From NCBI GenBank assembly GCA_047456315.1, contig CP179889.1:384776-448775 (forward strand): DNA of 64,000 nucleotides, given 5' to 3'. The notes below the pieces were generated by a model. It had not been told where the DNA came from. It ran no database searches and saw nothing but the letters and a program-made list of their open reading frames with translations. Below are positions 14,525 through 40,449 of the stretch, in pieces (the stretch's first letter is position 1; each line of letters starts with the position of its first letter). The stretch comes from Candidatus Nealsonbacteria bacterium (GTDB lineage Bacteria; Patescibacteriota; Minisyncoccia; Minisyncoccales; JANBVM01). The position numbers and the translations under genes were made by a program.

Positions 14525-15693
14525 GTTAAATTCACTCCTCTTATTTTTTCCACAACACTATCTCGCCATTCTTGATACTGCTCGGAAGTCAATTCTTTAC
14601 CGTTTTTAATTTGATCAGTTAAATCACTTTGAAAACCAGTTTGAATTGATTGCCCCATTAAAGCTAAAGATCCTGAGCCTCCTCCGTAACCTATAATACA
14701 AATATTTTGATTGGCTTTAGCTTGCTCCAAAGTAGAGATTAATGAGATAAAGACAGAAACAGTGTAGCAGTTGCCAATGTAAGGATTATATTGAAGACCA
14801 GATTTTATTTTTTGTTCAAAAAATGCTTGAAAATCTAATGCTTTTCTTGTTCTGTTTAATATTTTTTTAAACTTGTTAAATGACTGGGGATTAGTCAAAC
14901 ATTCTTTTAGCAGTTCTAAGCCGCTTTTGTATTTTTCATAATACCAAAGAGCTGCTGAAGTCCAGACAATCATTTTAGTAAAGGGAGTATGCATAACAAT
15001 ATGGTCAGCTGTTTTTACAATTGAACCGCACTCTTGGTTTTTTCTTTTATAATCGTTAGTTGCATTAATTATGCATTCAATAAAAGCCGGTTTTGTTAAA
15101 GGGCCATTAACTTGCGGGAATGGAGCTGTATAAATTGGCACTCTGAAATCATTTATGTCTTTTGAATATTGTCCAAAGTTTTTAAAATCTAATGCTAATA
15201 GTTTTGGGTTTTGTTCTATTCTTATAGCTACCACACCAGATCCTTGAGTTACTTCTGCTTTTTTATCTTCATAAACTGAACGATCTGCTGCTATAACAAT
15301 AGCTGGTTTAGCGTGGGCTATAGCATATTCACAAGCTAATAATAGGGCTTGAACTCCTGAAAGACAGGCAAATTTTAACTGAAAAGGCACTACTGTAAGA
15401 TTAAGGTTTTTAATTGTTTTTATTCCTATTTCAGCTTTTGATATATCATAGTCTGACTCAGTGGCAATAAAAAATCTATCAACGCCTTGATAGTTTATTT
15501 TTTTTAATGCCTGAGTTATAAGCTGTTCTAGAGAGGTTTGATAGGGGATTCTGGCCTGAATTAGCCCTAATCCTCCGTTTACATATTCTATTGGAAGCTT
15601 GCTTTTTTTAGCTATTTTTTCCACACCAATAAACCACTCTGGAATTGAAACAGCTATTTCGCTTATTCCCACTTTTGGCACTAGTTGATTCAT
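14521..15693 (-). CDS. mvaS: hydroxymethylglutaryl-CoA synthase
   Basis: Aligns by eye with bacterial MvaS: ATESDYDISKAE, LKFACLSG (catalytic Cys), VIAADRSVY, TQGSGVVAI, DFRVP...VNGPLT. Confidence 0.8.
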   Translation of the reverse strand: MNQLVPKVGISEIAVSIPEWFIGVEKIAKKSKLPIEYVNGGLGLIQARIPYQTSLEQLITQALKKINYQGVDRFFIATESDYDISKAEIGIKTIKNLNLTVVPFQLKFACLSGVQALLLACEYAIAHAKPAIVIAADRSVYEDKKAEVTQGSGVVAIRIEQNPKLLALDFKNFGQYSKDINDFRVPIYTAPFPQVNGPLTKPAFIECIINATNDYKRKNQECGSIVKTADHIVMHTPFTKMIVWTSAALWYYEKYKSGLELLKECLTNPQSFNKFKKILNRTRKALDFQAFFEQKIKSGLQYNPYIGNCYTVSVFISLISTLEQAKANQNICIIGYGGGSGSLALMGQSIQTGFQSDLTDQIKNGKELTSEQYQEWRDSVVEKIRGVNLT

Positions 15694-16350: not shown

Positions 16351-17652
16351 ATGAATATTCATTTTATTGGTATTGGTGGAATTGGAGTATCTGCTTTAGC
16401 TAAGTATTATCTTGAAAAAGGCCATAATATAACTGGTTCTGATTTGGTTAGAACAGAAATCACAGATTGGTTTGAAAAAAAAGGAGTAAAAGTTCTAATA
16501 GGAAAGAATAGGGCTGAAAATGTGGCTAATAATATTGATCTAGTGGTTTATAGCCCAGCTGTAGAAGAAGACAATCCAGAGCTTAAGTTTGCTAAAGATT
16601 CAGGAGTCAAAACTCAAAGCTATCCTCAGGCCCTAGGTGATTTAACAAAAAAACACTTTACCATAGCTATTACTGGCACTCATGGCAAAAGCACAACAAC
16701 TTCAATGACAGGTCTTTTGCTGATGAAAGCAGGGCTGGACCCAACAGTAATTGTTGGCACTAAACTTAAAGAATTTGAAGATTCAAGCTGTAGAGTGGGG
16801 AAGTCAAAATACTTAGTTATTGAGGCCTGTGAGCACTTTGAATCTTTTTTGAATTATTATCCCAATATAATTGTTTTAACAACAATTGAAGCAGAACATC
16901 TGGATTATTACAAGAATCTGGATGGAGTGCTTAAAGGATTCAAGAAGTTTGTTAATAATTTAGAAGATAATGGCGTTATTATTGCAAATAGAGATGATGA
17001 AAATACTAAGAAAATTATTGAAAATGCAACCTGGTATTCATTAAAAGACAAAGAAGCCGTTAGAATCAAAGAAATTTTACAAGTTCCAGGTGATTTTAAT
17101 ATTTCAAATGCTTTGGCAGCGTTGAATGTGGCCAGAGCTTTAAAAATTCCTGATGAAGTTTCGTTTAAAGTTTTGTCAGAGTATAAGGGTTCCTGGCGCA
17201 GGTTTGAAATAAGCGAGATAGCATTAAATGGGAAACAGATAACTCTAATCGATGATTATGGTCATCATCCAACTGAAATTAAAGTTACATTAAAAGCAGC
17301 ACGTGAGAGATTCCCTAAAAAACAAATCTGGTGTGTTTTCCAGCCTCATCAATATCAAAGAACTTATTATTTGCTTGATGATTTTATTGATGTGTTTAAA
17401 CAAGCTCCGGTAGATAAGTTGATTATTACTGATATTTATGATGTTGCGGGAAGGGAAGAAAAAGAAATCAGAGAAAAAATCAACTCTGAAAAGCTCGTTA
17501 ATTCTGTAAACAAAAACTCTATAGTTTATATACAAAAAGAAAAAATAATTGATTTTTTAAATCAGAATTTAAACGGGGGAGAGATAGTAATCATTATGGG
17601 AGCAGGGGATATATATGATGATGTGAGCTTGGAATTGAAAAAGCAGAAGTAA
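16351..17652 (+). CDS. murC: UDP-N-acetylmuramate--L-alanine ligase
   Basis: IHFIGIGGIGVSALA N-terminus, GTHGKSTTTSM P-loop, Mur ligase middle and C domains. Confidence 0.92.
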   Translation: MNIHFIGIGGIGVSALAKYYLEKGHNITGSDLVRTEITDWFEKKGVKVLIGKNRAENVANNIDLVVYSPAVEEDNPELKFAKDSGVKTQSYPQALGDLTKKHFTIAITGTHGKSTTTSMTGLLLMKAGLDPTVIVGTKLKEFEDSSCRVGKSKYLVIEACEHFESFLNYYPNIIVLTTIEAEHLDYYKNLDGVLKGFKKFVNNLEDNGVIIANRDDENTKKIIENATWYSLKDKEAVRIKEILQVPGDFNISNALAALNVARALKIPDEVSFKVLSEYKGSWRRFEISEIALNGKQITLIDDYGHHPTEIKVTLKAARERFPKKQIWCVFQPHQYQRTYYLLDDFIDVFKQAPVDKLIITDIYDVAGREEKEIREKINSEKLVNSVNKNSIVYIQKEKIIDFLNQNLNGGEIVIIMGAGDIYDDVSLELKKQK

Positions 17653-17767: not shown

Positions 17768-18520
17768 ATGAAAATGAAATATTGGTTAATCAGATTATTT
17801 CTTAGATTATGGACAAGAAAAATTAAAATAGTTAATCGTGGTAAATCTCCGATTCAGCCCCAGAGTCACCAAAAGTATTATAGCTACTTTTCTTACGAGA
17901 GTATTTCCGAGAATATGCTCAAATCTCTTATTAGAGCTTATCAAAGTGTGTTTTCGGAACCACCTTGGGAAGAAACTTGGGAAGAGATTCTAGTAAAAGA
18001 GAAGATAGAAAATGAAATTACAGGAAAACCTGTTCTTACTATAATGGGCGGCAATTTTGAAAATCCTGTTACTGGATTTAGCTGGGGATCTCTAATCGAT
18101 ACTGATAGTGTTGCAGAGAGAATTAAATCAGGCTTATTAACGAAAGCTGAGTCAGTAGATGAGCAAAAAGTTCAAAGCATAGAGAATTTTTTAAAAAAGA
18201 GAAGTGATAAAATACTTTTCTATGATGAATTTGCTATTTTGTCTCAGTTTCGAGGCGGAGTGGACCAAATTCGGTTTCTTTTTAGGCCTGGCCTAGAAAT
18301 GGCATTTGAACACGGAGTAAAACAGACTATTTTCTGGAGCACCCCAGAATCTAAAATTGTTCCCCTAGCAATCTTTATGGGATTTAGACCTATTTCCACA
18401 ATTATGATCAGTGGAAAAAAAGTAATCTTCCTTTATAATTCTGATTTTAGGTCAGTATTAAAGATTGCGCAAAGCATGCCAGCTAAGAAAATAAAGAAAA
18501 TAATGTCTTTATTCTCTTAA
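17768..18520 (+). CDS. hypothetical protein, possibly GNAT-like acyltransferase fold
   Basis: 250 aa. Weak GNAT-like features (FAILSQFRGG, beta-alpha pattern). Monocistronic, with its own promoter and terminator. Confidence 0.4.
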   Translation: MKMKYWLIRLFLRLWTRKIKIVNRGKSPIQPQSHQKYYSYFSYESISENMLKSLIRAYQSVFSEPPWEETWEEILVKEKIENEITGKPVLTIMGGNFENPVTGFSWGSLIDTDSVAERIKSGLLTKAESVDEQKVQSIENFLKKRSDKILFYDEFAILSQFRGGVDQIRFLFRPGLEMAFEHGVKQTIFWSTPESKIVPLAIFMGFRPISTIMISGKKVIFLYNSDFRSVLKIAQSMPAKKIKKIMSLFS

Positions 18521-18646: not shown

Positions 18647-19498
18647 ATGAAGTTTTTTATGAGAGCTATTTTTTCAAAAAAGAAAATATTAAAATCAGCA
18701 ATTTCTCCCTTTGATCAATATTGTACTGGATATCCAGGACAGGGAACCCACATAACTGCTTTGGTTATGGAAATAGGAAGTTTTAAAGAATCTTTTAGTC
18801 ATCTTGGTTCAAAGAAACTGGATTCTATTGTTGCATATGATAAGGCAGAAGTTGGTAGCGCGTATATAGGACAAATAAATATGAGCGTTGTTTCTTCATT
18901 TTGTGGACCTCAAGGGTTAATTTGGGGCTATGATATCGCAAAAAAAGAAGGTACTGGTTTACCTTCTTTTTTATCAAAAAACGGTCTTAAAAAATTTAGA
19001 GGAATAAAGATTAAAAATGGGAAAAATTTAAGAGAAGCCACTGAAGCGCTTTTTGGCACTAATAACGAGCGTCACTTCCCATTTTTACCAGGAACTCATG
19101 TTCCTTGTGCTGTAAAGCTTTACTACAAATCAGGACCTGCTTATTTATATGGAACAGCGGCTATCGGAATACCTGAAGACAGAAACAACGCTGCTTGTTT
19201 ATTTATGGAAGACGTAGGAGAAATAATTACAGAACAGCAAAACATAGATGATATTAAAGAGAAAGTTTATGTAAATACAATCCAGAGCATTATAGAAATA
19301 GGAAAAAATCAAGGAGTAAAATACAGTGAGATTTTTGTGGATTTTATATCAAAAAAAATTAAAAGTGGAGAGAGAGGCTGTGTTTTAGTGGCCATACCTT
19401 ATTTTCAATTAGCCCAAAAAGCTTTTAATAGGAAATTAGCTGAGCAGAATATATTAGAGTGGGTTGATAAAAGTAAAAAATATTTTTTACATAATTAA
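18647..19498 (+). CDS. hdcA: pyruvoyl-dependent histidine decarboxylase proenzyme homologue
   Basis: By-eye alignment to Lactobacillus 30a HdcA (recalled from memory): ISPFDQY.TGY, IVAYDKAE..SAYIGQINMSVVSSFCGPQG (Ser-Ser cleavage site), LFMEDVG. Confidence 0.8.
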   Translation: MKFFMRAIFSKKKILKSAISPFDQYCTGYPGQGTHITALVMEIGSFKESFSHLGSKKLDSIVAYDKAEVGSAYIGQINMSVVSSFCGPQGLIWGYDIAKKEGTGLPSFLSKNGLKKFRGIKIKNGKNLREATEALFGTNNERHFPFLPGTHVPCAVKLYYKSGPAYLYGTAAIGIPEDRNNAACLFMEDVGEIITEQQNIDDIKEKVYVNTIQSIIEIGKNQGVKYSEIFVDFISKKIKSGERGCVLVAIPYFQLAQKAFNRKLAEQNILEWVDKSKKYFLHN

Positions 19499-22946: not shown

Positions 22947-23855
22947 ATGAACAAAAATATTAAGTTTTTTTTAACGTCTTTTATTTTAAGCCTGTTTTTC
23001 TTTTTGGGGATAAACTCTTTTCAAGTAAGGGTAGAGAGGTTCTTTTATGCTCAGATTACCCAGCCTTTTCAGAATCTTGCTTTAGTTGATTTATCAAACA
23101 TACCAGAAAAACCAAGGCCAGATATTGAAGCAGAATCTGTTATCTCGGTTAAAATTAACAAATCAGGAAAAGAAAGGTTTCTTTTGCGAAGGAAAATTGA
23201 TGAACCGCTTTCAATTGCTTCTTTGACTAAATTAATGACAGCTTTAGTTGTTATTGAAAACAATCCTGATTTATCCAAAACAATAACTATTTCCAGGGAT
23301 GCAGAAAATAAATACAATGTTCCGATATATGGAAACTTAAAAACAGGCCAGAAAGTTTCACTGGAAAATCTTTTGAATTTAATGCTTCATTATTCAAGCA
23401 ATGACGCAGCCTTTGCTTTAGCGGAATCTGTTGGCTTGAATAATTTTATTGAGAAAATGAACCAAAAAGCTAAGGATTTAGGTTTGGAAAACACTCATTT
23501 TATCAATCCTACTGGCCTTGATCCTCAAGATATTGATACAGTGCCCAACTATTCAACCAGCTATGATTTAATGCTTCTTTCAAAGTATATTTTAAAGAAT
23601 CATCCTTTTTTATTTGAGCTTTCTTTAGAGAATGGACCATATTTAATTGAAAACGGAGTATTGGACTTGCATATTTTAGACAGCCAGATAATTATAGGTG
23701 GGAAAACTGGATATACTGAAAAAGCAGGCGGGTGTATGCTTTTTGTTTTTTCTGATCAGAATGAAAATTATTTTATTAACTTAGTGCTGGGCACTGAATC
23801 ACCTCAGAAAAGAATTGAAGAAATGCAAAAGCTAATTAACTGGATAAACTTATAA
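22947..23855 (+). CDS. D-alanyl-D-alanine carboxypeptidase (S11 PBP)
   Basis: N-terminal TM; SxxK (SLTK), SxN (SSND) and KTG (GKTGYT) motifs. Confidence 0.85.
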   Translation: MNKNIKFFLTSFILSLFFFLGINSFQVRVERFFYAQITQPFQNLALVDLSNIPEKPRPDIEAESVISVKINKSGKERFLLRRKIDEPLSIASLTKLMTALVVIENNPDLSKTITISRDAENKYNVPIYGNLKTGQKVSLENLLNLMLHYSSNDAAFALAESVGLNNFIEKMNQKAKDLGLENTHFINPTGLDPQDIDTVPNYSTSYDLMLLSKYILKNHPFLFELSLENGPYLIENGVLDLHILDSQIIIGGKTGYTEKAGGCMLFVFSDQNENYFINLVLGTESPQKRIEEMQKLINWINL

Positions 23856-24938
23856 ATGACTCTTTTTACTTTTAATGTAATTCGACTTTTAATATTATCA
23901 GTAATAAGCGCTGGAATTTCTTTTATTTGGGCGCCTTTTTTAATAAAGCTTTTAAGGAGAATTAAATTCTGGAAGAAAAAAGCTAGAACTAGAACAATAA
24001 CCAATGAAGAGGCCAAGGTTTTTTATTCTTTACACAAAGACAATAAAACAAAGGTGCCAAGAGGCGGTGGTCTTTTAATCTGGCTTTCAGTTCTTGCAAT
24101 GATACTATTGTTTTTTGCTTTGTCATATATTGATGATCCCTGGTGGCTGAAAAAAGTGAATTTTCTGTCTCGTAGCGAAACATGGCTTCCTTTGTTTGCC
24201 TTAGTTGCAGGTTCAGTTGTAGGATTAATTGATGACGCTTTAACTGTTTTCGGAAAAGGTAAATATGTTGGCGGAGGAATGAGTTTTATAAGAAGATTAA
24301 TGATTGTTATTTTAATAGGATTAATTGGCGGCTGGTGGTTTTATGTTAAGCTTGCCAAAAACACAATTCACATTCCTTTGATATATAATTTTCCAGAAGG
24401 AATAAACTTTCTTATTGGTTGGTGGTATATTCCTTTGTTTGTTTTGGTGATGCTTGCCTCCTGGGCAGGAGGTGTGATTGACGGGATAGATGGCCTGGCA
24501 GGAGGAATTTTTGCTTCAATCTTTGCTGGTTTTGCTGTTATTGCTTTTACTCAACAAAAAGCTGATTTAGCAACGTTTTGCGCAATAATTTCTGGAACTT
24601 TATTTGCTTTTTTATGGTTTAACATACCTCCAGCTAAATTCTATATGGGAGAAACAGGTGTTTTGGGCTTAACCTCAACAATGACAGTGGTTGCTTTTTT
24701 AACTGATTCAATAATGGTTTTGCCAATTATTGCCGGGATCATTGTAATTGAGGTTGGTTCAATAGTAATTCAGCTTTTGTCTAAAAAATTTCGGGGTAAA
24801 AAAATATGGCTTTGCACTCCAATCCACCATCATTTTGAAGCAAGAGGCTGGCCGTCATATAATGTGACAATGAGGTTTTGGCTTTTGAATTTGGTTTTTG
24901 TGTTTTTAGGAGTAGCAATTAAGCTTTTTGCAGGTTAA
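23856..24938 (+). CDS. mraY: phospho-N-acetylmuramoyl-pentapeptide transferase
   Basis: Polytopic protein with MraY blocks (VPRGGGL, DDALTV, GVIDGIDGLAGG, HHHFE). Confidence 0.92.
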   Translation: MTLFTFNVIRLLILSVISAGISFIWAPFLIKLLRRIKFWKKKARTRTITNEEAKVFYSLHKDNKTKVPRGGGLLIWLSVLAMILLFFALSYIDDPWWLKKVNFLSRSETWLPLFALVAGSVVGLIDDALTVFGKGKYVGGGMSFIRRLMIVILIGLIGGWWFYVKLAKNTIHIPLIYNFPEGINFLIGWWYIPLFVLVMLASWAGGVIDGIDGLAGGIFASIFAGFAVIAFTQQKADLATFCAIISGTLFAFLWFNIPPAKFYMGETGVLGLTSTMTVVAFLTDSIMVLPIIAGIIVIEVGSIVIQLLSKKFRGKKIWLCTPIHHHFEARGWPSYNVTMRFWLLNLVFVFLGVAIKLFAG

Positions 24939-24942
24939 ATAT

Positions 24943-26334
24943 ATGAAACCAGTGGTCTTGAGAAAAAAATACCCTAAGTTTGTTTATGTTGGGTACTCAT
25001 ACAAGATTTCAAACAATAATTTGGAAATTTTTTTTGATTTTAAAATTGAACCGGATATTGTTTTTAAACCAAAAATAACTATTGAAAACATTAATAAAAA
25101 CAATCTTGAGAAAATAGGGAAAAGCGTATTAAATAACCTAGTGTTTAATTTAGGATTGATTGAAACGATAAGCTACTGGAAAGCAACATGTTCAGAAGAG
25201 ATTGAAATTAGAGCTGGTAGTTTAAATAAAGAGCAAATTAGGTGGTTCAAAGATTTAATAACAAATGGAATGGGCCAGTTTTTTTATGAAAACAAACTTA
25301 GTTTTAAAATTGTTGATTCTTTGAAAATTATTTCGAAGAATAATAGAGTAAAAGATTCTGAGATTTTTAAACAAAAATTAAGCAATCAAATCTTAATTCC
25401 AATAGGAGGAGGCAAAGATTCAATAGTGGGCTTGGAAATTCTTAAGAAATCAAAATGTCCTTTAACTTGTTTTTCATTAAATCCGACTGATAATGCTAAA
25501 AAAATATTAAAGGTAGGTGGCTGTAAAGAACCAATTATTGTTAAGCGGAAAATTGATCCTAAATTGCTCGAATTAAACAGAAAAGGTTTTTTAAACGGTC
25601 ATACTCCGTTTTCAGCTTATTTAGCTTTTTTAACAATTTTAATTGGTGTGATTTATGATTATAAGTACATTGCTTTTTCAAATGAAAGAAGTTCAAATGA
25701 GGGAAATGTAAAGTATTTAGGAAAAACTATTAATCATCAATATTCAAAAAGCTTTGATTTTGAAAAGAAATTCAGAAATTATTCAAAAAAATATTTAGCT
25801 CAAGATATTGAATATTTCAGTTTTCTAAGGCCTTTATATGAAATTCAGATTGCAGCGTTATTTTCTAAATATTTTAATAAATATGGTAATCTTTTTTTAA
25901 GCTGTAATGAAGCTTATAAGACATATTCGGGAAAAAGAAGACCAATTAAAAAGTGGTGTGGTAAATGCTCCAAATGCTTGTTTGTGTTTTCAATTTTATA
26001 TCCATTTATTGAAACTAAAAAGCTGATTGAAGTTTTTGGAAAAAATCTTTTTGAAAGTAAAGAATTAGTTGGTTTAATGAAAGAATTAATAGGGGAGAGT
26101 AAGTTCAAGCCTTTTGAGTGTGTTGGCACAAAAAAAGAAAGCTTAGTGGCTTTCTACTTAAGTTTGAAAAAAGCCAAAAAAGAAGAAAAGAAACTGCCTT
26201 ATCTTTTAAAATATTTCGAAAAGTATACATTAGCAAAACGTTCTGGGTTAAAAAAAGAATCAGAAAATATAATGAATTCTTGGAACAAAGAACATGTTTT
26301 ATCTAAGAGGTTTACAAAATACTTAAAAACTTAA
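24943..26334 (+). CDS. PP-loop ATPase in dcw cluster, MurL-like (putative UDP-MurNAc-L-Ala-L-Glu epimerase)
   Basis: PP-loop IPIGGGKDS, CGKCSKC motif, about 460 aa. Sits between mraY and (after an insertion) murD. Family assignment is an inference. Confidence 0.5.
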   Translation: MKPVVLRKKYPKFVYVGYSYKISNNNLEIFFDFKIEPDIVFKPKITIENINKNNLEKIGKSVLNNLVFNLGLIETISYWKATCSEEIEIRAGSLNKEQIRWFKDLITNGMGQFFYENKLSFKIVDSLKIISKNNRVKDSEIFKQKLSNQILIPIGGGKDSIVGLEILKKSKCPLTCFSLNPTDNAKKILKVGGCKEPIIVKRKIDPKLLELNRKGFLNGHTPFSAYLAFLTILIGVIYDYKYIAFSNERSSNEGNVKYLGKTINHQYSKSFDFEKKFRNYSKKYLAQDIEYFSFLRPLYEIQIAALFSKYFNKYGNLFLSCNEAYKTYSGKRRPIKKWCGKCSKCLFVFSILYPFIETKKLIEVFGKNLFESKELVGLMKELIGESKFKPFECVGTKKESLVAFYLSLKKAKKEEKKLPYLLKYFEKYTLAKRSGLKKESENIMNSWNKEHVLSKRFTKYLKT

Positions 26335-26488
26335 AGTTCTTTAATAATAAATTTGTTGCTTTACAGGTAAGTATGTAGTCTTGACAAGTAAACGTTTTAA
26401 AAGAGATAATGAAAGTGATAAAAGGTCGATAACAATTAAGTGATTTTAATAATTAAGAAATCGCTTTTTTTTAATTATTATTAAAAAT

Positions 26489-27037
26489 ATGGTAGCAGAG
26501 ATTTTACAATTTTTGGCAGATTGGGGTTTTACAAAAGAAGCTATAATGCCATTATTAGTTCTTGGTTTACTTGCTTATCTTTTATTTACAAAGAAATTAA
26601 ACAAATTATTAAATCCAATTAAGTTTGCAATAGTTGAAATTCAAACCATATTTAAAATCAATAAAATACCACTTGAACATTACTTAGCAGCGACAAGTGA
26701 TAGTCCATTAAAACCAACAGAATTTGGTTGGAAATTACTCAAAGAAAGTGGTTTAAATGAGTTATTGGAAAAAAAGCAAGAATATTTTTTAAAAATTCTG
26801 AATGATAAATTAAAAGACATCACACCTTATACTGATTATGATGTTCAAGAAAAAGCAATTGAGTCATTAGTTGAATTAAAAAATGAACCAATAATAAATC
26901 CCATTAAAGACTACGCATTTCAAAATGGTATTGACGTAGAAGTAATTTTAAGAACAGGAGGATTAGTTCTAAGAGAAAAATATTTTAAGAAATATCCAAA
27001 GAATATCAAAAATGAAAAAAACGAAGTAAGTGTTTAA
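26489..27037 (+). CDS. hypothetical membrane-anchored protein
   Basis: 182 aa with an N-terminal TM segment and no recognised motif. Confidence 0.45.
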   Translation: MVAEILQFLADWGFTKEAIMPLLVLGLLAYLLFTKKLNKLLNPIKFAIVEIQTIFKINKIPLEHYLAATSDSPLKPTEFGWKLLKESGLNELLEKKQEYFLKILNDKLKDITPYTDYDVQEKAIESLVELKNEPIINPIKDYAFQNGIDVEVILRTGGLVLREKYFKKYPKNIKNEKNEVSV

Positions 27038-27066
27038 AAAGCAACTTCCAAAAGAAGTTGCTTTTT
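27038..27066 (+). terminator. intrinsic terminator
   Basis: AAAGCAACTTC-CAAAA-GAAGTTGCTTT stem-loop plus T-run. Confidence 0.75.
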
Positions 27067-27067
27067 G

Positions 27068-27080
27068 AGTTATCCACAGT
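27068..27080. repeat. left 13-bp terminal inverted repeat AGTTATCCACAGT
   Basis: Perfect inverted copy at 27496-27508. Contains the DnaA-box consensus TTATCCACA (27070-27078). Confidence 0.8.
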
Positions 27081-27086
27081 TGATCC

Positions 27087-27116
27087 TTGTATTGTTTTCT
27101 TGAAATGTGGTATAAT
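27087..27116 (+). promoter_or_regulatory. extended -10 promoter inside IR-bounded element
   Basis: TGgTATAAT at 27108-27116. Weak -35 TTGTAT at 27087-27092. Confidence 0.5.
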
Positions 27117-27185
27117 TTTCTAATGAGTATTGGTGGGTCGACAATAACTTATTAAAAATTAAAATCACAGGCCGTTTAAGAGTTT

Positions 27186-27301
27186 AAGCTTCTTATTTCG
27201 AAAGTGGGTGTTAGAGGTTAAGACCACTAATACTCAATAGTGTATGGCTTGTTGATTTAATAAGTTATACCTCTAATATTCACTTTCAAGGTAAGAAGTT
27301 T
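27186..27301 (+). ncRNA. long imperfect hairpin RNA (about 33-bp stem)
   Basis: Arms 27186-27218 and 27269-27301 pair with 7 G:U wobbles and 1 mismatch. The wobbles work only for a plus-strand transcript. A T-run follows. Confidence 0.5.
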
Positions 27302-27367
27302 TTCTTTAAAATCAAAACAAAAAATGCCCCCAAGTTTGAAATTAAGAACATTTTTTGTCTAATCATT

Positions 27368-27454
27368 GGAGAGGTATAAAGGTAAATGGCACCCCTTCTT
27401 ATTAACAATAAGTAAACCGTCTAGGTTTTATGGGTTCAAATCCCATCCTCTCCG
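27368..27454 (+). ncRNA. tRNA-like structure (Ser-type acceptor/T-arm, aberrant D and anticodon arms)
   Basis: GGAGAGG/CCTCTCC acceptor stem with G discriminator. ATGGG-TTCAAAT-CCCAT T-arm. AAACC/GGTTT long variable arm. No canonical 7-nt anticodon loop or D-stem. Confidence 0.4.
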
Positions 27455-27495
27455 TACGTCTTTTAATATTACCACAAGCCTTGTCAAGATACTAG

Positions 27496-27508
27496 ACTGT
27501 GGATAACT
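27496..27508. repeat. right 13-bp terminal inverted repeat ACTGTGGATAACT
   Basis: Reverse complement of 27068-27080. Lies 35 nt upstream of the transposase ATG. Confidence 0.8.
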
Positions 27509-27542
27509 AAAGACTACCACAATCACTAAAGCTGTCAACAAT

Positions 27543-28451
27543 ATGCGATATACATATAAACAATTTCAAAAGGATTTCCCAGGCGACAACGCCTGTTTAG
27601 AATACATTTTCAAGGCTCGTTTTGGGAATAATCCAACCTGTCCAAAATGTGAAAAATTAAATTCTTTTTACAAGGTCGGTAAGAGAAGGGCTTATGCCTG
27701 TTCCTGTGGTTATCAAATTTATCCAGCCGTTAACACTATTTTTAATAAATCTTCAACCAGTTTAATCAGCTGGTTTTTTGCTATTTATTTAATGAGCTCT
27801 GCTAAGAATGGAGTATCTGCTAAAGAACTACAAAGGCATTTAGGAGTTAGTTATAAGACTGCTTTAAGAATGGCTCATAAGATAAGGAGTCTAATGAAAC
27901 AAGATAATTCAATGTTAGAGGGAGTAGTTGAAATTGATGAAATGTATGTTGGAGGTAATCCATATAGAAATTTAAGAAAAAGATATATTAAAAAAACTCC
28001 TGTAATCGGAATAGTAGCTCGTAATGGTAAAGCAAAAGCAGTAGTGGTTGAGGAAGCAGATACAAGAAGTGCTTTTAAATTATTAAAGGATAATGTTAAA
28101 GTTGGTTCTAAAATAATGAGCGACGGCTCGCGTCTTTATAGAAATAAACTTGAAAAGCTGGGCTTTAAGCACAGCATTGTGAAGCATAGTGAGAATGAAT
28201 ATGTTAGAGGAGATGTTTACACTAACAGCATTGAACAGTTCTGGAGTCAGATTAAAAACTCAATCAGAGGCACTTATCATTCTGTAAATCCTAAGTACCT
28301 GCAGACTTACGTCGACGAGTTCGTCTACCAGTATAACCACCGCACTTTGAAGAATTCCTCTTTGTTTGAGACTTTGCTTGTCCGCCTTTGCCCACAGCAC
28401 GGCTTAAAAGAGAATGAAAGCGTCGCTTGGTGGTCGTTGGTTTCTTCATAG
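27543..28451 (+). CDS. IS1595-family (ISXO2-like) transposase
   Basis: N-terminal transposase Zn-ribbon (CPKCEK...YACSCG), then a DDE_Tnp_IS1595 pattern (VEIDEMYVGG, MSDGSRLY, TNSIEQFWSQIK, YLQTYVDEFVYQYNHR). Confidence 0.9.
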   Translation: MRYTYKQFQKDFPGDNACLEYIFKARFGNNPTCPKCEKLNSFYKVGKRRAYACSCGYQIYPAVNTIFNKSSTSLISWFFAIYLMSSAKNGVSAKELQRHLGVSYKTALRMAHKIRSLMKQDNSMLEGVVEIDEMYVGGNPYRNLRKRYIKKTPVIGIVARNGKAKAVVVEEADTRSAFKLLKDNVKVGSKIMSDGSRLYRNKLEKLGFKHSIVKHSENEYVRGDVYTNSIEQFWSQIKNSIRGTYHSVNPKYLQTYVDEFVYQYNHRTLKNSSLFETLLVRLCPQHGLKENESVAWWSLVSS

Positions 28452-28525
28452 TTTTATTTTAACATCTGATAAGAAAAAATAAAAGTCGAAGAATTTATAA
28501 ATAACTTTAAAAAATAATCAATAAA

Positions 28526-28663
28526 ATGGATTCATACACAAAAGAAATAATCGTTGCTTACTTTAAAGGCGGAAATGCACAAGATAGTGGAGTAGAAAGG
28601 ATTAAGCAAGTCTTGAAAGTAATAAAGGAAGTGGTTGAAGAAGAAGAAGAAGAAAGAGAATAG
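28526..28663 (+). CDS. small acidic protein (45 aa)
   Basis: ATG 28526, TAG 28661-28663, followed by a strong terminator. Confidence 0.3.
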   Translation: MDSYTKEIIVAYFKGGNAQDSGVERIKQVLKVIKEVVEEEEEERE

Positions 28664-28675
28664 CTTTTAACTATC

Positions 28676-28704
28676 AGTCCCCGAAAGGGGGCTTTTGGTT
28701 TTTT
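28676..28704. terminator. intrinsic terminator (GC-rich tetraloop hairpin)
   Basis: AGTCCCC-GAAA-GGGGGCT followed by T-runs. Sits between convergent ORFs. Confidence 0.7.
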
Positions 28705-28705
28705 C

Positions 28706-29260
28706 TCATATTTTTATATTAAAATAATTAAGAAATAATTGGAGTAATAGACCACCGAGAACACCAAGAAGAAAAACAGATAATTTAGAATTTTCTCTTA
28801 AAAGTGCTTCTATAAATCCCAATAGTTCCCTTAATCTTTCTCCCTTTGGTTCAATTGTTAATAGGGTATTGTCCGTAAGCGGAAATGATTCAGAAGTATC
28901 TCTTTTAATATATTTATCACTCAAGCAATGTCTAATAATTTCTTCGTTTCTATAACGAAGATTGCTTAAATAGTCTTTATCAAAAATCTTCACAACTAAT
29001 ATTTTAAAATTGATTATACGAAGGCTAAATTTGGATTTAGTGGGAAAGAACTCTTTCTGCCATAACCAGTCTGAAAATTCTTTTAAAGAAACTCCTTTTG
29101 TCCTGTATCTGTATTGGTTTATTAAACCACGCTTCTCTTTCCAAATTAACCTATGTAATTTATTAACAATATGACGTTCTTTGAAAATCAACATAATTTT
29201 CTTTATTATATCAAAAACACCTTTATGTGTCTTTTTCTTTTTTACTTGTTGTGAATACAT
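28706..29260 (-). CDS. hypothetical protein with C-terminal TM segment
   Basis: ORF-track frame. Internal ATG at 29260 (MYSQQVKKKK) preferred over the hydrophobic 5' extension. Confidence 0.35.
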   Translation of the reverse strand: MYSQQVKKKKTHKGVFDIIKKIMLIFKERHIVNKLHRLIWKEKRGLINQYRYRTKGVSLKEFSDWLWQKEFFPTKSKFSLRIINFKILVVKIFDKDYLSNLRYRNEEIIRHCLSDKYIKRDTSESFPLTDNTLLTIEPKGERLRELLGFIEALLRENSKLSVFLLGVLGGLLLQLFLNYFNIKI

Positions 29261-29339
29261 ACTTACCGCTTTACATGGTTTGACAGATTTATTTGAATTA
29301 TGTATAACATAAACAGCACATAATTTTACAAATAGAAAA

Positions 29340-29740: not shown

Positions 29741-31057
29741 ATGAAATTAAAAAATTTAAAGAATAAAAAAATACTGATTCTGGGTTTAGGCATAGAGGGC
29801 ATGGATAACTTAAAGTTTTTAACAAAAACCTTTCCTGGTGAAATCATTGCGGTGGGTGATAGGTTAGAATTTGATGATTTAAATCCTGCAGCTAAAAAAA
29901 TAATTAAAGAAAGAAAAAAGCTCAGGCTTCATCTAGGAAAAAGTTATCTTGAGTTTTTAAAACACTATGATGTAATAATTAAATCTCCCGGAATTTCACC
30001 CAGTACTCTAAAGCCATTTTTAACTAAAAAACAAACTATTACTTCTCAAACAGAGATTTTTTTTAATAACTGCCCAGGCAAAATTATTGGCATCACAGGG
30101 ACAAAGGGAAAAAGCACCACCACCTCTTTGATTTATGCAATTTTAAAAGAAAATGGCATTAAAGCTTATTTGGGAGGCAATATTGGCAAGCCAGTATTGT
30201 CTTTTCTTGAATCTAGCAAGCCAGAGAATGTGTATGTTTTTGAGCTTTCCAGCCATCAGCTCTTAAATCTTAAAAAAAGCCCTCATATTGCTGTTTTTTT
30301 AAACATATATAAGGAGCATTTGGATTACTATGATGGGTTTAAAGAGTATATATCAGCTAAAAGCAATATCTTGCGTTATCAGAAAAAAAGCGATTATTTG
30401 ATATTTAATTCAAAGAATAAGCTGGTAAACAAAGAAGCAAAGAAATCAAAAGCTAAGAAAATCCCTATTGATTCAGTTAAAATTAAAAAGATTGATACAT
30501 TATTAAAAGGTGATTTTAATGTTTTTAATATTAAAGCTGCAATTGCTGTGGCAAGGTTGTTTGATCTCCAGGATAAAGATATCTTAAAAAGCATTAAAAA
30601 GTTTAAATCCCTAAAGCACAGATTAGAATATATTGGAACATACAAAGGAATTAAGTTTTATAATGATGCCTTGTCAACTGTTCCAGAAGCAACAATTGCA
30701 GCGCTTGATGCTTTAGGAAATAATGTTGAGACAATATTTTTAGGGGGATTAGATAGAGGAATAGATTTTAAAGGTTTAGCTAAAAGGATTTTAAAAAGTA
30801 AAATCAAAACTTTAATTTTATTCCAGACAACAGGTGATAAAATCTATAGGCAGATCGTTGCTTTAGATGATAATAAAAAATACAAAGCAATTTTAGTGCA
30901 AAACATGAAAGACGGAGTGGATATGGCTTTTAAGTATACGCAAAGAGGAAAGATCTGCCTTTTATCGACTGCTTCACCAAGCTTTAACTTGTTTAAGGAC
31001 TATAAGGAGAAAGGTAATTTGTTTAAAAAATACGTCAAACTTTATGGCAAGCGCTAG
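29741..31057 (+). CDS. murD: UDP-N-acetylmuramoylalanine--glutamate ligase
   Basis: ILILGLGIEG N-terminus, GITGTKGKSTTTS P-loop, Mur ligase C domain. Precedes ftsW-murG. Confidence 0.9.
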   Translation: MKLKNLKNKKILILGLGIEGMDNLKFLTKTFPGEIIAVGDRLEFDDLNPAAKKIIKERKKLRLHLGKSYLEFLKHYDVIIKSPGISPSTLKPFLTKKQTITSQTEIFFNNCPGKIIGITGTKGKSTTTSLIYAILKENGIKAYLGGNIGKPVLSFLESSKPENVYVFELSSHQLLNLKKSPHIAVFLNIYKEHLDYYDGFKEYISAKSNILRYQKKSDYLIFNSKNKLVNKEAKKSKAKKIPIDSVKIKKIDTLLKGDFNVFNIKAAIAVARLFDLQDKDILKSIKKFKSLKHRLEYIGTYKGIKFYNDALSTVPEATIAALDALGNNVETIFLGGLDRGIDFKGLAKRILKSKIKTLILFQTTGDKIYRQIVALDDNKKYKAILVQNMKDGVDMAFKYTQRGKICLLSTASPSFNLFKDYKEKGNLFKKYVKLYGKR

Positions 31058-32174
31058 AAAGCTGGATTACATTCTAATAATCACTACAATGCTTTTAATA
31101 ATCTTTGGGATTATTATTTTAGCCAGCGCTTCAACCTCTGTTTCCCAGATTAAGTTTGGCGATAGTTACTATTATCTGAATCATCAGATAATATTTGCCC
31201 TGATTCCAGGGATTCTGTTAGCAGTCCTGTTTTCAAGAATCAAGCTTAGTATTGTGAAGAAATGGGCGCCTGTCGCTCTTTTATTGAATCTTGTTCTTAT
31301 GACACTTGTTTTTTTACCTGGTATAGGCATTAAAATAGGCAAGGGAGCAAGATGGATTTCATTGGGCATAGCTTCTTTTCAGCCCTCTGAGACACTAAAG
31401 CTTGCTTTTATCCTATATATTGCCAGCTGGCTGGAGGGAAAAAATAAAAAGAAATTTTCTCTGCCAAAAAACCAAAAAGATTTAAAAGAAAATTTTCTTG
31501 CTTTCATAATGATTCTTGGGCTGATTGGTCTGCTTTTATGGTTTCAATCTGATTTAGGAACTTTAGCTGTGATTCTTGCTATCGGAGTGTTTATGTATTT
31601 TTTGGCAGATACTCCTATTTTACATACAATAACAATAGGGTTGCTTATAGGATTAGCATTTCTAATTCTTATTAACTTTTCATCCTACCACTGGCAAAGG
31701 ATAGTAGTATTTTTAAATCCTGACATAGATCCAATGGGGTCAGGTTATCAGTTGAAACAGTCATTAATGGCAATAGGTTCAGGAGGGCTTTTTGGACTGG
31801 GATTTGGCATGTCTCAGCAGGAATTTGGATTTTTACCTCATTTAATATCAGATTCAATCTTCGCTGTTTTAGCGGAAGAAGCAGGGTTTATTGGTTCAGT
31901 AATGCTGATTGTTCTGTTTCTACTTTTTTTATGGCGCGGTTTTACAATCGGAAAACAGAGTAAAAACAGATTTTCTTCTTTAACGGCACTGGGCATAACT
32001 TCCTGGATTTTAATTCAAGCGCTGGTTAATATTGGCGCTATGATAGGCATTATTCCTTTAACAGGCATTCCTTTGCCATTTATCAGTCAAGGAGGTACAG
32101 CCCTGGCAACAGAGCTGGCTGCAGTAGGAATTCTTTTAAATGTTTCAAGAGGAGCTAAATATGAAAAACAATAA
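31044..32174 (+). CDS. ftsW: SEDS-family peptidoglycan polymerase FtsW
   Basis: About 10 TM segments. Blocks SFQPSE, DLGT, DSIFAVLAEE, IPLTGIPLPFISQGGT. Confidence 0.9.
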   Translation: MASARKLDYILIITTMLLIIFGIIILASASTSVSQIKFGDSYYYLNHQIIFALIPGILLAVLFSRIKLSIVKKWAPVALLLNLVLMTLVFLPGIGIKIGKGARWISLGIASFQPSETLKLAFILYIASWLEGKNKKKFSLPKNQKDLKENFLAFIMILGLIGLLLWFQSDLGTLAVILAIGVFMYFLADTPILHTITIGLLIGLAFLILINFSSYHWQRIVVFLNPDIDPMGSGYQLKQSLMAIGSGGLFGLGFGMSQQEFGFLPHLISDSIFAVLAEEAGFIGSVMLIVLFLLFLWRGFTIGKQSKNRFSSLTALGITSWILIQALVNIGAMIGIIPLTGIPLPFISQGGTALATELAAVGILLNVSRGAKYEKQ

Positions 32175-33312
32175 AAAAATCAAGGTTTTATTTACTGGCG
32201 GCGGCAGCGGGGGACATATTTTCCCGATTATTGCTGTTGCCAGAGAAATGAGAAAACTTTCTCCTGAAAAGAGGAAAAACAAAGAATTTGAGTTTTTCTA
32301 TTTTGGGCCAAAAGATGAGTTTGCTGACATATTTCTTTCTCAGGAAGAAATTAAAATCAAACATATTTTAGCCGGTAAAATCAGAAGATATTCAAGCGTT
32401 AAAAGCATTGCCCAGAACTTAGTTGATATTATTTTTAAAATCCCGATAGGTCTAGTTCAGGCCTTTATTTATTTATTTGTTTTAGCTCCTGATGTTATTT
32501 TCTCAAAAGGCGGATTTGGATCTCTACCAACAGTTATATCTGGATGGCTTTTGGGAATTCCCATCTTCCTGCAGGAATCAGATGTTATTCCAGGGATGGC
32601 TAACAGGATTTTAGCTAGATTCTCAACAGAGATTTTTGTTTCTTTTCCTAAGACACCATACTTTAAAAAAAGAATGATTCTGGCTGGAAATCCCATAAGA
32701 ACAGAGATTTTAAATGCCACTAAAAAGGAATCTTATGAGTTTTTTAAATTAACAGGCAAGAAACCAGTGATTTTCATTATGGGTGGTTCCCAGGGCGCTC
32801 AGCGCGTTAATGACAAGATTTTAGAGATACTGGGCGCTTTAGTAGAGAATTTTGAAATTATACATCAGTGCGGTGAGAAAAACGTTAAACAGGTCAAAGC
32901 TGAAGCAAAAACAGTTATGCCTGAGTATTTAGCAAAGTATTATCATGCATTTGGATTTTTAAAAGAGCAGGAGCTGGAAAAAGCTTATGCTGCCAGTGAT
33001 TTAGTGGTTTCTCGTTCTGGTTCAGGAAGTATCTTTGAAATAGCAGCCTGGGCAAAACCATCAATTCTAATACCATTACCAGAATCAGCCCAGAACCATC
33101 AACTTGAAAATGCATATAATTATGCTCAAAAAGGAGCAGCAATAGTGTTTGAAGAGCAAAACTTTACTTCTCGTTTTTTCCATGAAAAGCTTAAAAACCT
33201 GTTTTCTCGCCCAGAACAGCTTGAAAAAATGAGTATTGCTGCCAAAAAATTCTCAAAGCCAAGGGCAGCAAAAACCATTGCTGGATACGTTGCAATCTAT
33301 TTGACTAAATAA
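32161..33312 (+). CDS. murG: undecaprenyldiphospho-muramoylpentapeptide beta-N-acetylglucosaminyltransferase
   Basis: FTGGGSGGHIFP G-loop, GGSQGA, C-terminal HQLENA. ATG 32161 has a GGAG RBS. Confidence 0.92.
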   Translation: MKNNKKIKVLFTGGGSGGHIFPIIAVAREMRKLSPEKRKNKEFEFFYFGPKDEFADIFLSQEEIKIKHILAGKIRRYSSVKSIAQNLVDIIFKIPIGLVQAFIYLFVLAPDVIFSKGGFGSLPTVISGWLLGIPIFLQESDVIPGMANRILARFSTEIFVSFPKTPYFKKRMILAGNPIRTEILNATKKESYEFFKLTGKKPVIFIMGGSQGAQRVNDKILEILGALVENFEIIHQCGEKNVKQVKAEAKTVMPEYLAKYYHAFGFLKEQELEKAYAASDLVVSRSGSGSIFEIAAWAKPSILIPLPESAQNHQLENAYNYAQKGAAIVFEEQNFTSRFFHEKLKNLFSRPEQLEKMSIAAKKFSKPRAAKTIAGYVAIYLTK

Positions 33313-40435: not shown

Positions 40436-40449
40436 TAGCTTGTATATAA

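What the first reader, a model, noticed from the sequence alone, without database searches (positions are those of the whole stretch)
24943..26334. PP-loop ATPase embedded in the dcw cluster, possibly the MurL epimerase of the MurD2/MurL D-Glu pathway
A ~460-aa protein with a PP-loop (IPIGGGKDS) and a CGKCSKC motif sits between mraY and murD once the insertion is removed. In Xanthomonas, MurD2 adds L-Glu and the ATP-dependent epimerase MurL converts it to D-Glu on the UDP-MurNAc peptide, replacing glutamate racemase. The position, size and adenylating-type motif fit that role. I cannot verify family membership from memory of the MurL sequence.
Basis: inference. Interest (0 to 1): 0.55.

Follow-up and report, generated by a model that had tools for sequence, protein, structure and literature searches.

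The report
MurL epimerase gene in a Patescibacteria genome
The gene is a clear relative of MurL, the ATP-driven enzyme that turns L-glutamate into D-glutamate on the cell-wall precursor, and it sits next to a matching L-glutamate-adding MurD; this suggests that a pathway described as confined to a few genera also operates in ultrasmall Patescibacteria and several other phyla.

Summary
An intact 463-aa ORF (ATG 24943; alternative TTG 24928, 468 aa; stop 26334) carries IPIGGGKDS (nt 25396-25422) and CGKCSKC (nt 25957-25977).

**Family.** It matches NCBIfam MurL_Xanthmoales over its full length (E 1.4e-83). It carries Pfam MurL_N and MurL_epimerase_C. It is 33% identical to an annotated Xanthomonas sacchari MurL (E 4e-63). 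An AlphaFold model (pLDDT 89.5) and a profile search both place its core in the PP-loop ATP-pyrophosphatase fold, closest to QueC and QatC.

**Insertion.** The 2.9-kb stretch between it and murD is a real IS1595-family element (26366-29267) with terminal inverted repeats and an 8-bp target duplication. An 80%-identical relative has the empty site: mraY-murL-murD-ftsW-murG.

**Partner ligase.** The downstream MurD has the residues reported to set L-Glu specificity in MurD2 (Glu, Arg, Pro, Phe at E. coli D182, K348, A414, L416) and lacks K319.

**Wider pattern.** In 82 loci from many phyla, murD follows murL in 71, and the signature recurs. MurL-MurD fusion proteins are common.

**Verdict.** It is a new, so far unannotated, member of a known family. 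Absence of murI could be checked only in the 64-kb window. No enzyme activity was tested.

The parts
16351..17652 (+). murC (UDP-MurNAc--L-Ala ligase), which makes the substrate of the MurD2-type ligase
   Evidence: TIGR01082 416 bits, above the cut-off of 335
23856..24938 (+). mraY
   Evidence: TIGR00445 E 1.3e-43; Pfam Glycos_transf_4
24943..26334 (+). [quoted passage not shown]
   Evidence: NF041275 E 1.4e-83 over the full length; Pfam MurL_N + MurL_epimerase_C; 33% identity to X. sacchari MurL; AF2 pLDDT 89.5
25396..25422 (+). PP-loop motif IPIGGGKDS (ATP pyrophosphatase signature, SGGxDS type)
   Evidence: G161, G162 and D164 invariant, K163 and S165 at least 90% conserved across 31 diverse homologs including Xanthomonas; aligns with the TtuA PP-loop, E 2.5e-5
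25957..25977 (+). CGKCSKC. With invariant C326 (nt 25903-25905) it forms a C-x17-C-x2-C-x2-C cluster, a probable Zn site as in QueC
   Evidence: C326, C344, C347 and C350 invariant; QueC-like fold. Zn binding is inferred.
26358..26365 (.). left copy of the 8-bp target-site duplication GCTTTACA
26366..29267 (+). IS1595-family element (2902 bp) with passenger DNA, inserted 23 nt after the murL stop codon
   Evidence: terminal inverted repeats; empty site in L002
27543..28451 (+). IS1595-family DDE transposase
   Evidence: NF033547 191 bits (cut-off 75); Pfam DDE_Tnp_IS1595 + Zn_ribbon_IS1595
29268..29275 (.). right copy of the target-site duplication GCTTTACA
29741..31057 (+). MurD-family ligase with the MurD2 (L-Glu-adding) signature: E192, L311, R339, P413, F415
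   Evidence: alignment to E. coli MurD and X. sacchari MurD2; the TIGR01087 hit does not discriminate between the types
31044..32174 (+). ftsW
   Evidence: Pfam FTSW_RODA_SPOVE on the ortholog in L002; synteny
32140..33312 (+). murG
   Evidence: Pfam Glyco_transf_28 on the ortholog in L002

Best explanation
[quoted passage not shown] It works together with the MurD encoded downstream at 29741-31057, which is a MurD2-type ligase.

Proposed pathway:
1. MurC makes UDP-MurNAc-L-Ala.
2. The MurD2-type ligase adds L-Glu instead of D-Glu.
3. MurL binds ATP with its QueC-like PP-loop domain and adenylates the alpha-carboxylate of the terminal L-Glu, releasing PPi.
4. The activated C-alpha proton is removed and replaced from the opposite face.
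5. [quoted passage not shown]

The organism would then need no glutamate racemase. An IS1595 element has recently landed in the murL-murD spacer without damaging either coding sequence.

Shown here: family membership, the fold, the ligase signature, gene linkage and fusions, and the insertion anatomy. Taken from the literature on the Xanthomonas enzymes: substrates, AMP formation, and one-way L-to-D conversion. Inferred: the adenylation site, the catalytic bases, Zn binding, and that the pathway replaces MurI in this genome.
For: **Family**
- NF041275 MurL hit, E 1.4e-83, covering profile positions 6-438 of 447.
- Precomputed Pfam MurL_N and MurL_epimerase_C.
- 33% identity over 329 aa, E 4e-63, to X. 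sacchari MurL, which itself passes the equivalog cut-off.
- 27 columns are invariant across 31 homologs from Patescibacteria, Dehalococcoidia and Xanthomonas, including GG.D, GH.P, E.S, NHQ..K, SCN, WC..C.KC and K...C (the KPFECVG motif).

**Chemistry**
- The confident model (pLDDT 89.5, pTM 0.89) matches PP-loop enzymes: QatC, QueC, Cap9, TtuA, ThiI and argininosuccinate synthase.
- The profile aligns the GGGKDS motif with the TtuA PP-loop, E 2.5e-5.
- From general knowledge of the superfamily, PP-loop enzymes adenylate their substrate and release PPi. This fits the reported 1:1 ATP-to-AMP stoichiometry of XOO_1319.

**Partner ligase**
- The window MurD has E, R, P, F at E. coli positions D182, K348, A414, L416, as does X. 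sacchari MurD2.
- The E197D/R358K double mutation switches MurD2 to D-Glu.
- Four canonical MurDs with solved structures have D or T at 182 and A at 414, and three of them K at 348; all four keep K319. E. coli MurD is D/K/K/A.

**Linkage**
- murD follows murL on the same strand in 71 of 82 loci from many phyla. Five of the 11 exceptions are contigs cut just after murL.
- 36 loci have the order mraY-murL-murD.
- In the 70 neighbours with a complete signature, E182 occurs in 63, R348 in 69 and K319 in none.
- Of the best 150 cluster representatives, 29 are MurL-MurD fusions, 2 are MurD-MurL and 1 is MurE-MurL.

**Racemase**
- No MurI or fold-type-IV aminotransferase homolog was found in the window or in the 81 loci.
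Against: - The score against the curated MurL model (281 bits) is far below its equivalog cut-off (700), so NCBI's own rule would not name it MurL.
- No assay was done. The characterised enzymes share only about a third of residues with this one.
- Overall similarity of the window MurD to X. sacchari MurD2 equals its similarity to E. coli MurD (135 bits each), so the MurD2 assignment rests on five positions plus context.
- R348 and F416 also occur in some D-Glu-specific MurDs.
- The MurL family includes members without a murD neighbour. Pseudonocardia plasmid copies score 323 bits on the same HMM, so family membership alone does not fix function.
- One MurL-adjacent MurD (L069) has the canonical D/K pair.
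- Absence of murI was checked in only about 10% of the genome.
- The IS separates murL from murD and carries a terminator-like hairpin, so co-expression in this strain is uncertain.
Confidence: 0.85

Rival explanations
1. It belongs to the MurL family but has a different chemical outcome. After adenylating the Glu alpha-carboxylate it passes the acyl group to a nucleophile, for example ammonia to give isoglutamine as MurT/GatD does on lipid II. It would then modify the stem peptide rather than epimerise it.
For: From general knowledge, the closest folds (QueC, NAD/GMP synthetase-type PP-loop enzymes) usually couple adenylation to amide or nitrile formation. Identity to a reference MurL is only 33%. 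Family members exist outside a murD context.
Against: All residues invariant in the family, including those shared with Xanthomonas MurL, are kept. The partner MurD carries the L-Glu-specifying residues, and an L-Glu product would be useless for peptidoglycan without an epimerase. No glutaminase or amidotransferase partner lies in the cluster. Linkage and fusion to MurD are the same in Proteobacteria and Patescibacteria.
Confidence: 0.07
2. It is a generic PP-loop ATPase (QueC-like or a tRNA thiolation/modification enzyme) that merely happens to lie in the dcw cluster.
For: The fold matches QueC, TtuA, ThiI and MnmA. One JGI record names a homolog '7-cyano-7-deazaguanine synthase'.
Against: No QueC, TtuA or other PP-loop family HMM reaches significance in NCBIfam or Pfam; only MurL does. 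The extra N-terminal MurL_N domain is present. Conserved order with murD across phyla and frequent fusions to MurD and MurE cannot be coincidence.
Confidence: 0.02
3. The genes are MurL and MurD2, but in this strain the IS1595 insertion has uncoupled or silenced murD-ftsW-murG, so the locus is a decaying or polymorphic variant rather than the working arrangement.
For: A 2.9-kb IS with a terminator-like hairpin at 28676-28693 lies between murL and murD. The closest relative lacks it.
Against: murL, murD, ftsW and murG are all full length with conserved motifs. Other Patescibacteria tolerate 1-4 kb of unrelated genes in the same spacer (L007, L047, L008, L037), so murD probably has its own promoter. 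Promoter-like sites, no more frequent than in shuffled sequence, face murD near the IS end and in the remaining 474-nt spacer.
Confidence: 0.06

Closest known systems
[quoted passage not shown] Reference used here: X. sacchari WP_043095708.1
   Same: Same two-domain architecture and length (about 450-470 aa). 33% identity, with all family-invariant motifs. Gene immediately upstream of a MurD-family ligase on the same strand.
   Different: Scores 281 bits against the 700-bit equivalog cut-off. Sits inside the dcw cluster between mraY and murD, rather than at a separate locus next to the lysA/aspartate kinase gene as in Xanthomonas. The host is a Patescibacteria genome of about 0.65 Mb at 32% GC. 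Activity is untested.
[quoted passage not shown]
   Same: Glu, Arg, Pro and Phe at the four positions singled out by Feng et al., and a non-Lys residue at the E. coli K319 position. Encoded directly after murL.
   Different: Only 25% identical to X. sacchari MurD2, no closer than to E. coli MurD. Occupies the canonical murD slot before ftsW.
QueC / QatC / Cap9 (QueC-like PP-loop ATP pyrophosphatases)
   Same: Best structural matches (Foldseek E about 2e-4, probability 1.0). PP-loop motif. A Cys cluster ending in C-x2-C-x2-C after the nucleotide-binding fold. From general knowledge of QueC, the chemistry starts by adenylating a carboxylate.
   Different: No significant sequence-family hit to QueC. 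Extra N-terminal MurL_N domain and C-terminal helical region. The substrate is a UDP-sugar dipeptide. The adenylate is proposed to be hydrolysed after inversion, not attacked by ammonia.
MurI glutamate racemase plus canonical MurD (the standard route to D-Glu in peptidoglycan)
   Same: [quoted passage not shown]
   Different: MurI is cofactor-independent and acts on free glutamate before ligation. Here inversion is predicted after ligation, at the cost of one extra ATP. No MurI homolog is in the window.

Membership tests
[quoted passage not shown] | Full-length homology to the curated MurL model built on Xanthomonadales enzymes | tested here: met
   NF041275 E 1.4e-83, protein 14-461 against profile 6-438 of 447; BLASTP E 4e-63 to X. 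sacchari MurL
[quoted passage not shown] | Score at or above NCBI's equivalog cut-off (700 bits) | tested here: not met
   280.8 bits. The cut-off is tuned to Xanthomonadales: X. sacchari scores 836, while cultured Minisyncoccus scores 271 and a Pseudonocardia plasmid copy 323.
[quoted passage not shown] | Both Pfam domains, MurL_N and MurL_epimerase_C | tested here: met
   Precomputed hits PF26299 + PF26298 on the window protein P0001 and all 120 listed homologs; domain names. The local Pfam copy lacks these models.
[quoted passage not shown] | Conservation of the residues invariant between Xanthomonas MurL and distant homologs | tested here: met
   27 invariant columns are all present in the window protein
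[quoted passage not shown] | Genetic coupling to a MurD2-type ligase | tested here: met
   murD lies downstream once the IS is discounted. Same order in 71 of 82 loci, and 31 MurL/MurD fusions among the best 150 representatives.
[quoted passage not shown] | ATP- and Mg-dependent one-way L-to-D epimerisation with AMP release | not testable with these tools
   Known only for X. oryzae, Micromonospora and Salinispora enzymes
[quoted passage not shown] | Genome lacks murI and D-amino-acid aminotransferase | tested here: inconclusive
   None found in the 64-kb window or in 81 related loci. The rest of the 647-kb contig could not be read.
MurD2 (L-Glu-adding MurD) | Glu at E. coli D182 and Arg at K348, the pair whose mutation switches specificity | tested here: met
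   E192 and R339; literature basis
MurD2 (L-Glu-adding MurD) | Pro at A414 and Phe at L416 | tested here: met
   P413 and F415. Phe also occurs in canonical T. maritima MurD, so Pro is the informative one.
MurD2 (L-Glu-adding MurD) | Groups with characterised MurD2 rather than canonical MurD | tested here: inconclusive
   135 bits to X. sacchari MurD2 and 135 bits to E. coli MurD. TIGR01087 scores both types above its cut-off. No proper tree was built for lack of diverse canonical sequences.
MurD2 (L-Glu-adding MurD) | Prefers L-Glu in vitro | not testable with these tools
   -
PP-loop ATP pyrophosphatase superfamily | SGGxDS-type PP-loop at the start of a Rossmann-like alpha/beta fold | tested here: met
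   GGGKDS at aa 160-165. Profile hit to the TtuA PP-loop, E 2.5e-5. Foldseek hits to QueC, QatC, TtuA, ThiI and ArgG.
QueC (7-cyano-7-deazaguanine synthase) | Significant match to QueC family models | tested here: not met
   No QueC hit in NCBIfam or Pfam. PDB QueC sequences reach only E about 1 with the profile.
IS1595 family insertion sequence | DDE_Tnp_IS1595 transposase, terminal inverted repeats, 8-bp target duplication, empty site in a relative | tested here: met

The most novel reading that the evidence does not exclude
The MurD2/MurL route is described in the literature as limited to a few genera of Proteobacteria and Actinobacteria. It may instead be a major, perhaps the usual, way of putting D-Glu into peptidoglycan across much of the Patescibacteria (Paceibacteria, Microgenomatia, Minisyncoccia) and in many Acidobacteriota, Bacteroidota, Omnitrophota and other uncultured lineages. 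It often takes the form of a single fused MurL-MurD2 enzyme. Its epimerase would be a QueC-like PP-loop adenylating enzyme with a Cys4 metal site. Thousands of 'MurD, D-glutamate ligase' annotations would then be wrong, and an apparent lack of murI in such genomes would be explained.
Probability: 0.55. Interest if true: 0.6.

Novelty: new member of a known kind. Interest (0 to 1): 0.45.

Why it matters
- **Metabolic reconstruction.** D-Glu supply is an essential step of cell-wall synthesis. If these genes work as in Xanthomonas, reconstructions of Patescibacteria should score D-Glu supply through MurD2/MurL rather than MurI.
- **Annotation.** The neighbouring 'UDP-MurNAc-L-Ala--D-glutamate ligase' names are wrong in substrate stereochemistry. 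TIGR01087 cannot tell the two types apart.
- **Distribution.** The pathway was proposed as a narrow-spectrum antibiotic target because of its limited distribution (PMC8788868). A broad distribution in environmental and host-associated phyla changes that argument.
- **Mechanism.** The reviews read here say MurL lacks known conserved domains. The PP-loop/QueC-like fold gives a concrete structural basis for its reported ATP-to-AMP chemistry.
- **Experiment.** Minisyncoccus archaeiphilus, a cultured Patescibacterium, carries the same gene pair, so the prediction can be tested in a living member of the group.

Tried and rejected
- **Local Pfam scan** of the protein: no hit, because the copy predates the MurL models.
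- **Single-sequence PDB search:** nothing meaningful, so no MurL structure is deposited.
- **Finding a named Xanthomonas MurL among the best 150 cluster representatives.** I picked high-GC-type sequences by amino-acid composition, but none exceeded 257 bits, and the only taxon recovered was Dehalococcoidia. The reference came instead from a 508-kb X. sacchari record filed as a plasmid.
- **Overall-similarity test of MurD2 against MurD:** uninformative.
- **Literature searches** linking MurL or MurD2 to Patescibacteria, CPR or Parcubacteria, or by EC/KO numbers: nothing relevant. Most 'MurL' hits are typos for murI or unrelated words.
- **Peñalver 2024 paper** on MurI in Ca. Saccharimonas: not held.
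- **Minisyncoccus papers and supplements:** no mention of racemase or murD.
- **PHROGs scan** of the IS passenger ORFs and other unknown ORFs: no hits.
- **Small ORF between the IS and murD:** not convincingly conserved in the relative.
- **ARAGORN** does not support the weak Rfam tRNA hit inside the IS.
Full report
**Observation.** The window is AT-rich (about 32% GC). Around the finding it holds, all on the + strand: murC (16351-17652; TIGR01082 416 bits), a two-component pair, aspS, a D-Ala-D-Ala carboxypeptidase (22947-23855), mraY (23856-24938), the ORF in question (TTG 24928 or ATG 24943 to 26334), about 3.4 kb of other material, then murD (29741-31057), ftsW, murG and gltX. It matches the N-termini of homologs. 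IPIGGGKDS is at aa 157-165 and CGKCSKC at aa 344-350 of the 468-aa reading.

**The insertion.** A relative whose MurL is 80% identical (L002, GCA_964450805.1, a 636-kb contig) has mraY-murL-(531-bp spacer)-murD-ftsW-murG-gltX. DNA alignment breaks at window 26365/29270. The intervening 26366-29267 is bounded by 27-nt imperfect inverted repeats beginning GGTAAGTATGTA and by a direct 8-bp repeat GCTTTACA. The relative has a single copy of this site (GTTTTACA). Inside lies an IS1595-family transposase (27543-28451; NF033547 191 bits; Pfam DDE_Tnp_IS1595 and Zn_ribbon_IS1595), plus a 182-aa ORF with no known relatives. So murL and murD were adjacent before a recent IS1595 insertion 23 nt after the murL stop codon. 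Neither coding sequence is damaged.

**What the protein is.**
- The only NCBIfam hit is NF041275 'MurL_Xanthmoales', at E 1.4e-83, with residues 14-461 against profile positions 6-438 of 447. At 281 bits it is below the 700-bit equivalog cut-off.
- The public protein database records Pfam PF26299 (MurL_N) and PF26298 (MurL_epimerase_C) on this protein and on all 120 listed homologs. The homologs that carry an NCBI name are 'hypothetical protein' from Patescibacteria, Nealsonbacteria or Parcubacteria MAGs.
- A PGAP-annotated murL with its partner gene turned up in a 508-kb X. sacchari record filed as a plasmid. That MurL scores 836 bits on NF041275 and is 33% identical to the window protein over 329 residues (E 4e-63).
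- An alignment of 31 diverse homologs (Patescibacteria, a Dehalococcoidia MAG, high-GC unknowns, X. sacchari, Pseudonocardia) has 27 invariant columns: Y83, K85, G161, G162, D164, G224, H225, P227, E253, S255, N269, H270, Q271, K274, E279, S298, S325, C326, N327, W343, C344, C347, K349, C350, K394, C398 and E404.

**Fold and chemistry.** An AlphaFold2 model built on 54 sequences is confident (pLDDT 89.5, pTM 0.89). Foldseek against the PDB returns QatC (9y01_B), QueC (2pg3, 3bl5), Cap9 (9nto), TtuA, ThiI, MnmA, argininosuccinate synthase and NMN/NAD synthetase. From general knowledge, these are members of the PP-loop ATP-pyrophosphatase superfamily. A profile of the family also finds the TtuA PP-loop by sequence (E 2.5e-5), aligning 'vLvpvgGGkDSvvtlellkk' with 'ILVAVSGGKDSAVTAYVLKK'.

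The reviews of the Xanthomonas work report that MurL uses one ATP, releases AMP, works only from L to D, and 'lacks known conserved domains'. PP-loop enzymes adenylate their substrate and release PPi. That is the chemistry the authors proposed for the Glu alpha-carboxylate. The four invariant cysteines (C326...C344-x2-C347-x2-C350) resemble, from my memory of the QueC structures, the zinc site of QueC. C398, H225, H270 and K274 are candidates for the proton transfers. These last assignments are inference.

**The partner ligase.** Feng et al. (summarised in PMC8788868) found that MurD2 differs from E. coli MurD at D182/K348/A414/L416 (E197/R358/P433/F435 in MurD2). The E197D/R358K double mutant switches to D-Glu. 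K319T lets E. coli MurD accept L-Glu.

Residues at these five positions (the published E. coli numbering is the full-sequence position minus one):

| Enzyme | 182 | 319 | 348 | 414 | 416 |
|---|---|---|---|---|---|
| Window MurD | E | L | R | P | F |
| X. sacchari MurD2 | E | I | R | P | F |
| E. coli MurD | D | K | K | A | L |
| S. agalactiae MurD (3lk7) | T | K | R | A | W |
| T. maritima MurD (4buc) | D | K | K | A | F |
| 7sir MurD | D | K | K | A | F |
| P. aeruginosa MurD (7sy9) | D | K | K | A | L |

The informative positions are E182, non-Lys 319 and P414, together with R348. TIGR01087 scores the window MurD (321 bits) and the Xanthomonas MurD2 (298 bits) above its cut-off, so it cannot tell the two types apart. 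Overall similarity is also uninformative, at 135 bits to each. This means the shared residues do not come from close common ancestry.

**Comparative evidence.**
- HMMER against 1.84 billion cluster representatives finds 2692 clusters (1195 at E below 1e-30).
- Of the best 150, 33 are longer than 700 aa. They comprise 29 MurL-MurD fusions, 2 MurD-MurL, 1 MurE-MurL and 1 other. In 30 fused ligase moieties, 182 is E in 24, 348 is R in 29, and 319 is never K.
The best 80 loci come from Paceibacteria/Parcubacteria, Nealsonbacteria, Microgenomates lineages, Kerfeldbacteria and cultured Minisyncoccus archaeiphilus. They also come from Acidobacteriota, Bacteroidota, Actinomycetota, Pseudomonadota, Binatia, Rokubacteria, Methylomirabilia and Omnitrophota. 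Taxa are record titles as deposited; several 'Saccharibacteria' labels look generic.
- In these 80 loci plus L002 and the window, murD follows murL on the same strand in 71 of 82, often overlapping and twice fused. Five of the 11 exceptions are contigs that end right after murL. Thirty-six loci show mraY-murL-murD as here.
- Of 70 neighbours with a complete signature, 63 have E182, 69 have R348 and none has K319. One exception, L069, is D/K.
- In X. sacchari the pair has the same order but lies away from the dcw cluster.
- No MurI or fold-type-IV aminotransferase homolog occurs in the window or in any fetched locus. This covers only about a tenth of the genome, so it is weak evidence.

**Caveats.**
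- Nothing was assayed.
- The curated equivalog threshold is not met.
- Family members exist without a murD neighbour. Three Pseudonocardia plasmids carry one, and the copy examined scores 323 bits. Context, not the HMM score, carries the functional inference.
- At least one Patescibacteria lineage uses MurI: Peñalver et al. 2024 on Ca. Saccharimonas aalborgensis, cited in PMC11974145. The paper itself was not readable. So the phylum is not uniform.
- The IS carries a terminator-like hairpin and may have changed murD expression. However, other Patescibacteria hold 1-4 kb of unrelated genes in the same spacer.

**Comparison with what is known, and novelty.** The family, its reaction and its partner are known (Feng et al. 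2017 and 2019). Pfam already has MurL domain models that hit these proteins. What I could not find in the open literature searched is any mention of MurL/MurD2 in Patescibacteria or the other phyla listed. The reviews describe the distribution as a few genera of Gamma- and Alphaproteobacteria and rare actinomycetes, with low-similarity orthologs in a fungus, cyanobacteria and an amoeba. I also found no statement there that MurL is a QueC-like PP-loop enzyme. The finding is therefore a new, unannotated member of a known kind. Its wider implication, a broad distribution with fusions, is plausible but needs a proper census and biochemistry.

**Verdict.**
- Observation: confirmed.
- Interpretation: supported.
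- Confidence: about 0.97 for MurL-family membership and about 0.85 for the MurD2/MurL function.
- Interest: moderate (0.45).

Noticed in passing
window 26366-29267: The IS1595-family element is unusually long (2.9 kb). Besides the transposase it carries a 182-aa ORF (26489-27037) and about 0.8 kb of right-hand DNA, with no hit in NCBIfam, Pfam or PHROGs. It looks like a passenger-carrying IS.
   Followed up: partly
window 27368-27454 (+): Weak Rfam tRNA match (30.6 bits against a gathering score of 29, E 0.022) inside the IS, just upstream of the transposase. ARAGORN finds no tRNA anywhere in the window, so it may be a tRNA-like remnant or chance.
   Followed up: partly
window 18647-19498 (+), with 17768-18520: A pyruvoyl-type histidine decarboxylase (Pfam HDC, E 1.8e-43) and an adjacent 250-aa ORF of unknown function. 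They lie where the close relative L002 has a 4HBT thioesterase instead, so this is a strain-specific gene replacement.
   Followed up: partly
P0124, P0130, P0135, P0138, P0235, P0137 and others: Natural fusion proteins: 29 MurL-MurD, 2 MurD-MurL and 1 MurE-MurL among the best 150 cluster representatives. P0167 has an unidentified 347-aa N-terminal extension.
   Followed up: partly
L005 (Pseudonocardia alni plasmid pPaSha1, 4959-6359) and two other Pseudonocardia plasmids: MurL-family genes on actinomycete plasmids, annotated as hypothetical. The pPaSha1 copy has no murD neighbour, keeps all family-invariant residues and scores 323 bits on the MurL HMM; the neighbourhoods of the other two were not read. 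It is possibly a paralog with another substrate.
   Followed up: partly
L007 9440-12447; L047 9287-13486; L008, L037, L056, L032, L077, L051: The murL-murD spacer is a recurrent site of extra DNA in other Patescibacteria (1.2-4.2 kb). It includes what looks like an HMG-CoA reductase gene in L007 and a different DDE transposase in L047 (by eye, not HMM-checked).
   Followed up: no
L069 9337-10704: One Patescibacteria MurD that overlaps murL nevertheless has the canonical D182/K348 pair (with A at 319). It is an exception to the signature rule.
   Followed up: no
L004 6136-7572 and window 29741-31057: TIGR01087 (murD, 'D-glutamate ligase') scores the X. sacchari MurD2 ortholog at 298 bits, above its cut-off, and PGAP names it a D-glutamate ligase. 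The same mislabel probably affects MurL-linked MurDs generally.
   Followed up: yes
window 5854-7446; 38720-41382; 13124-14227; 14521-15693: Other features of the window: a large serine recombinase (CcrB/XisF-like); a restriction enzyme-like gene next to a dcm cytosine methyltransferase; an inositol-3-phosphate synthase homolog; and an HMG-CoA synthase.
   Followed up: no
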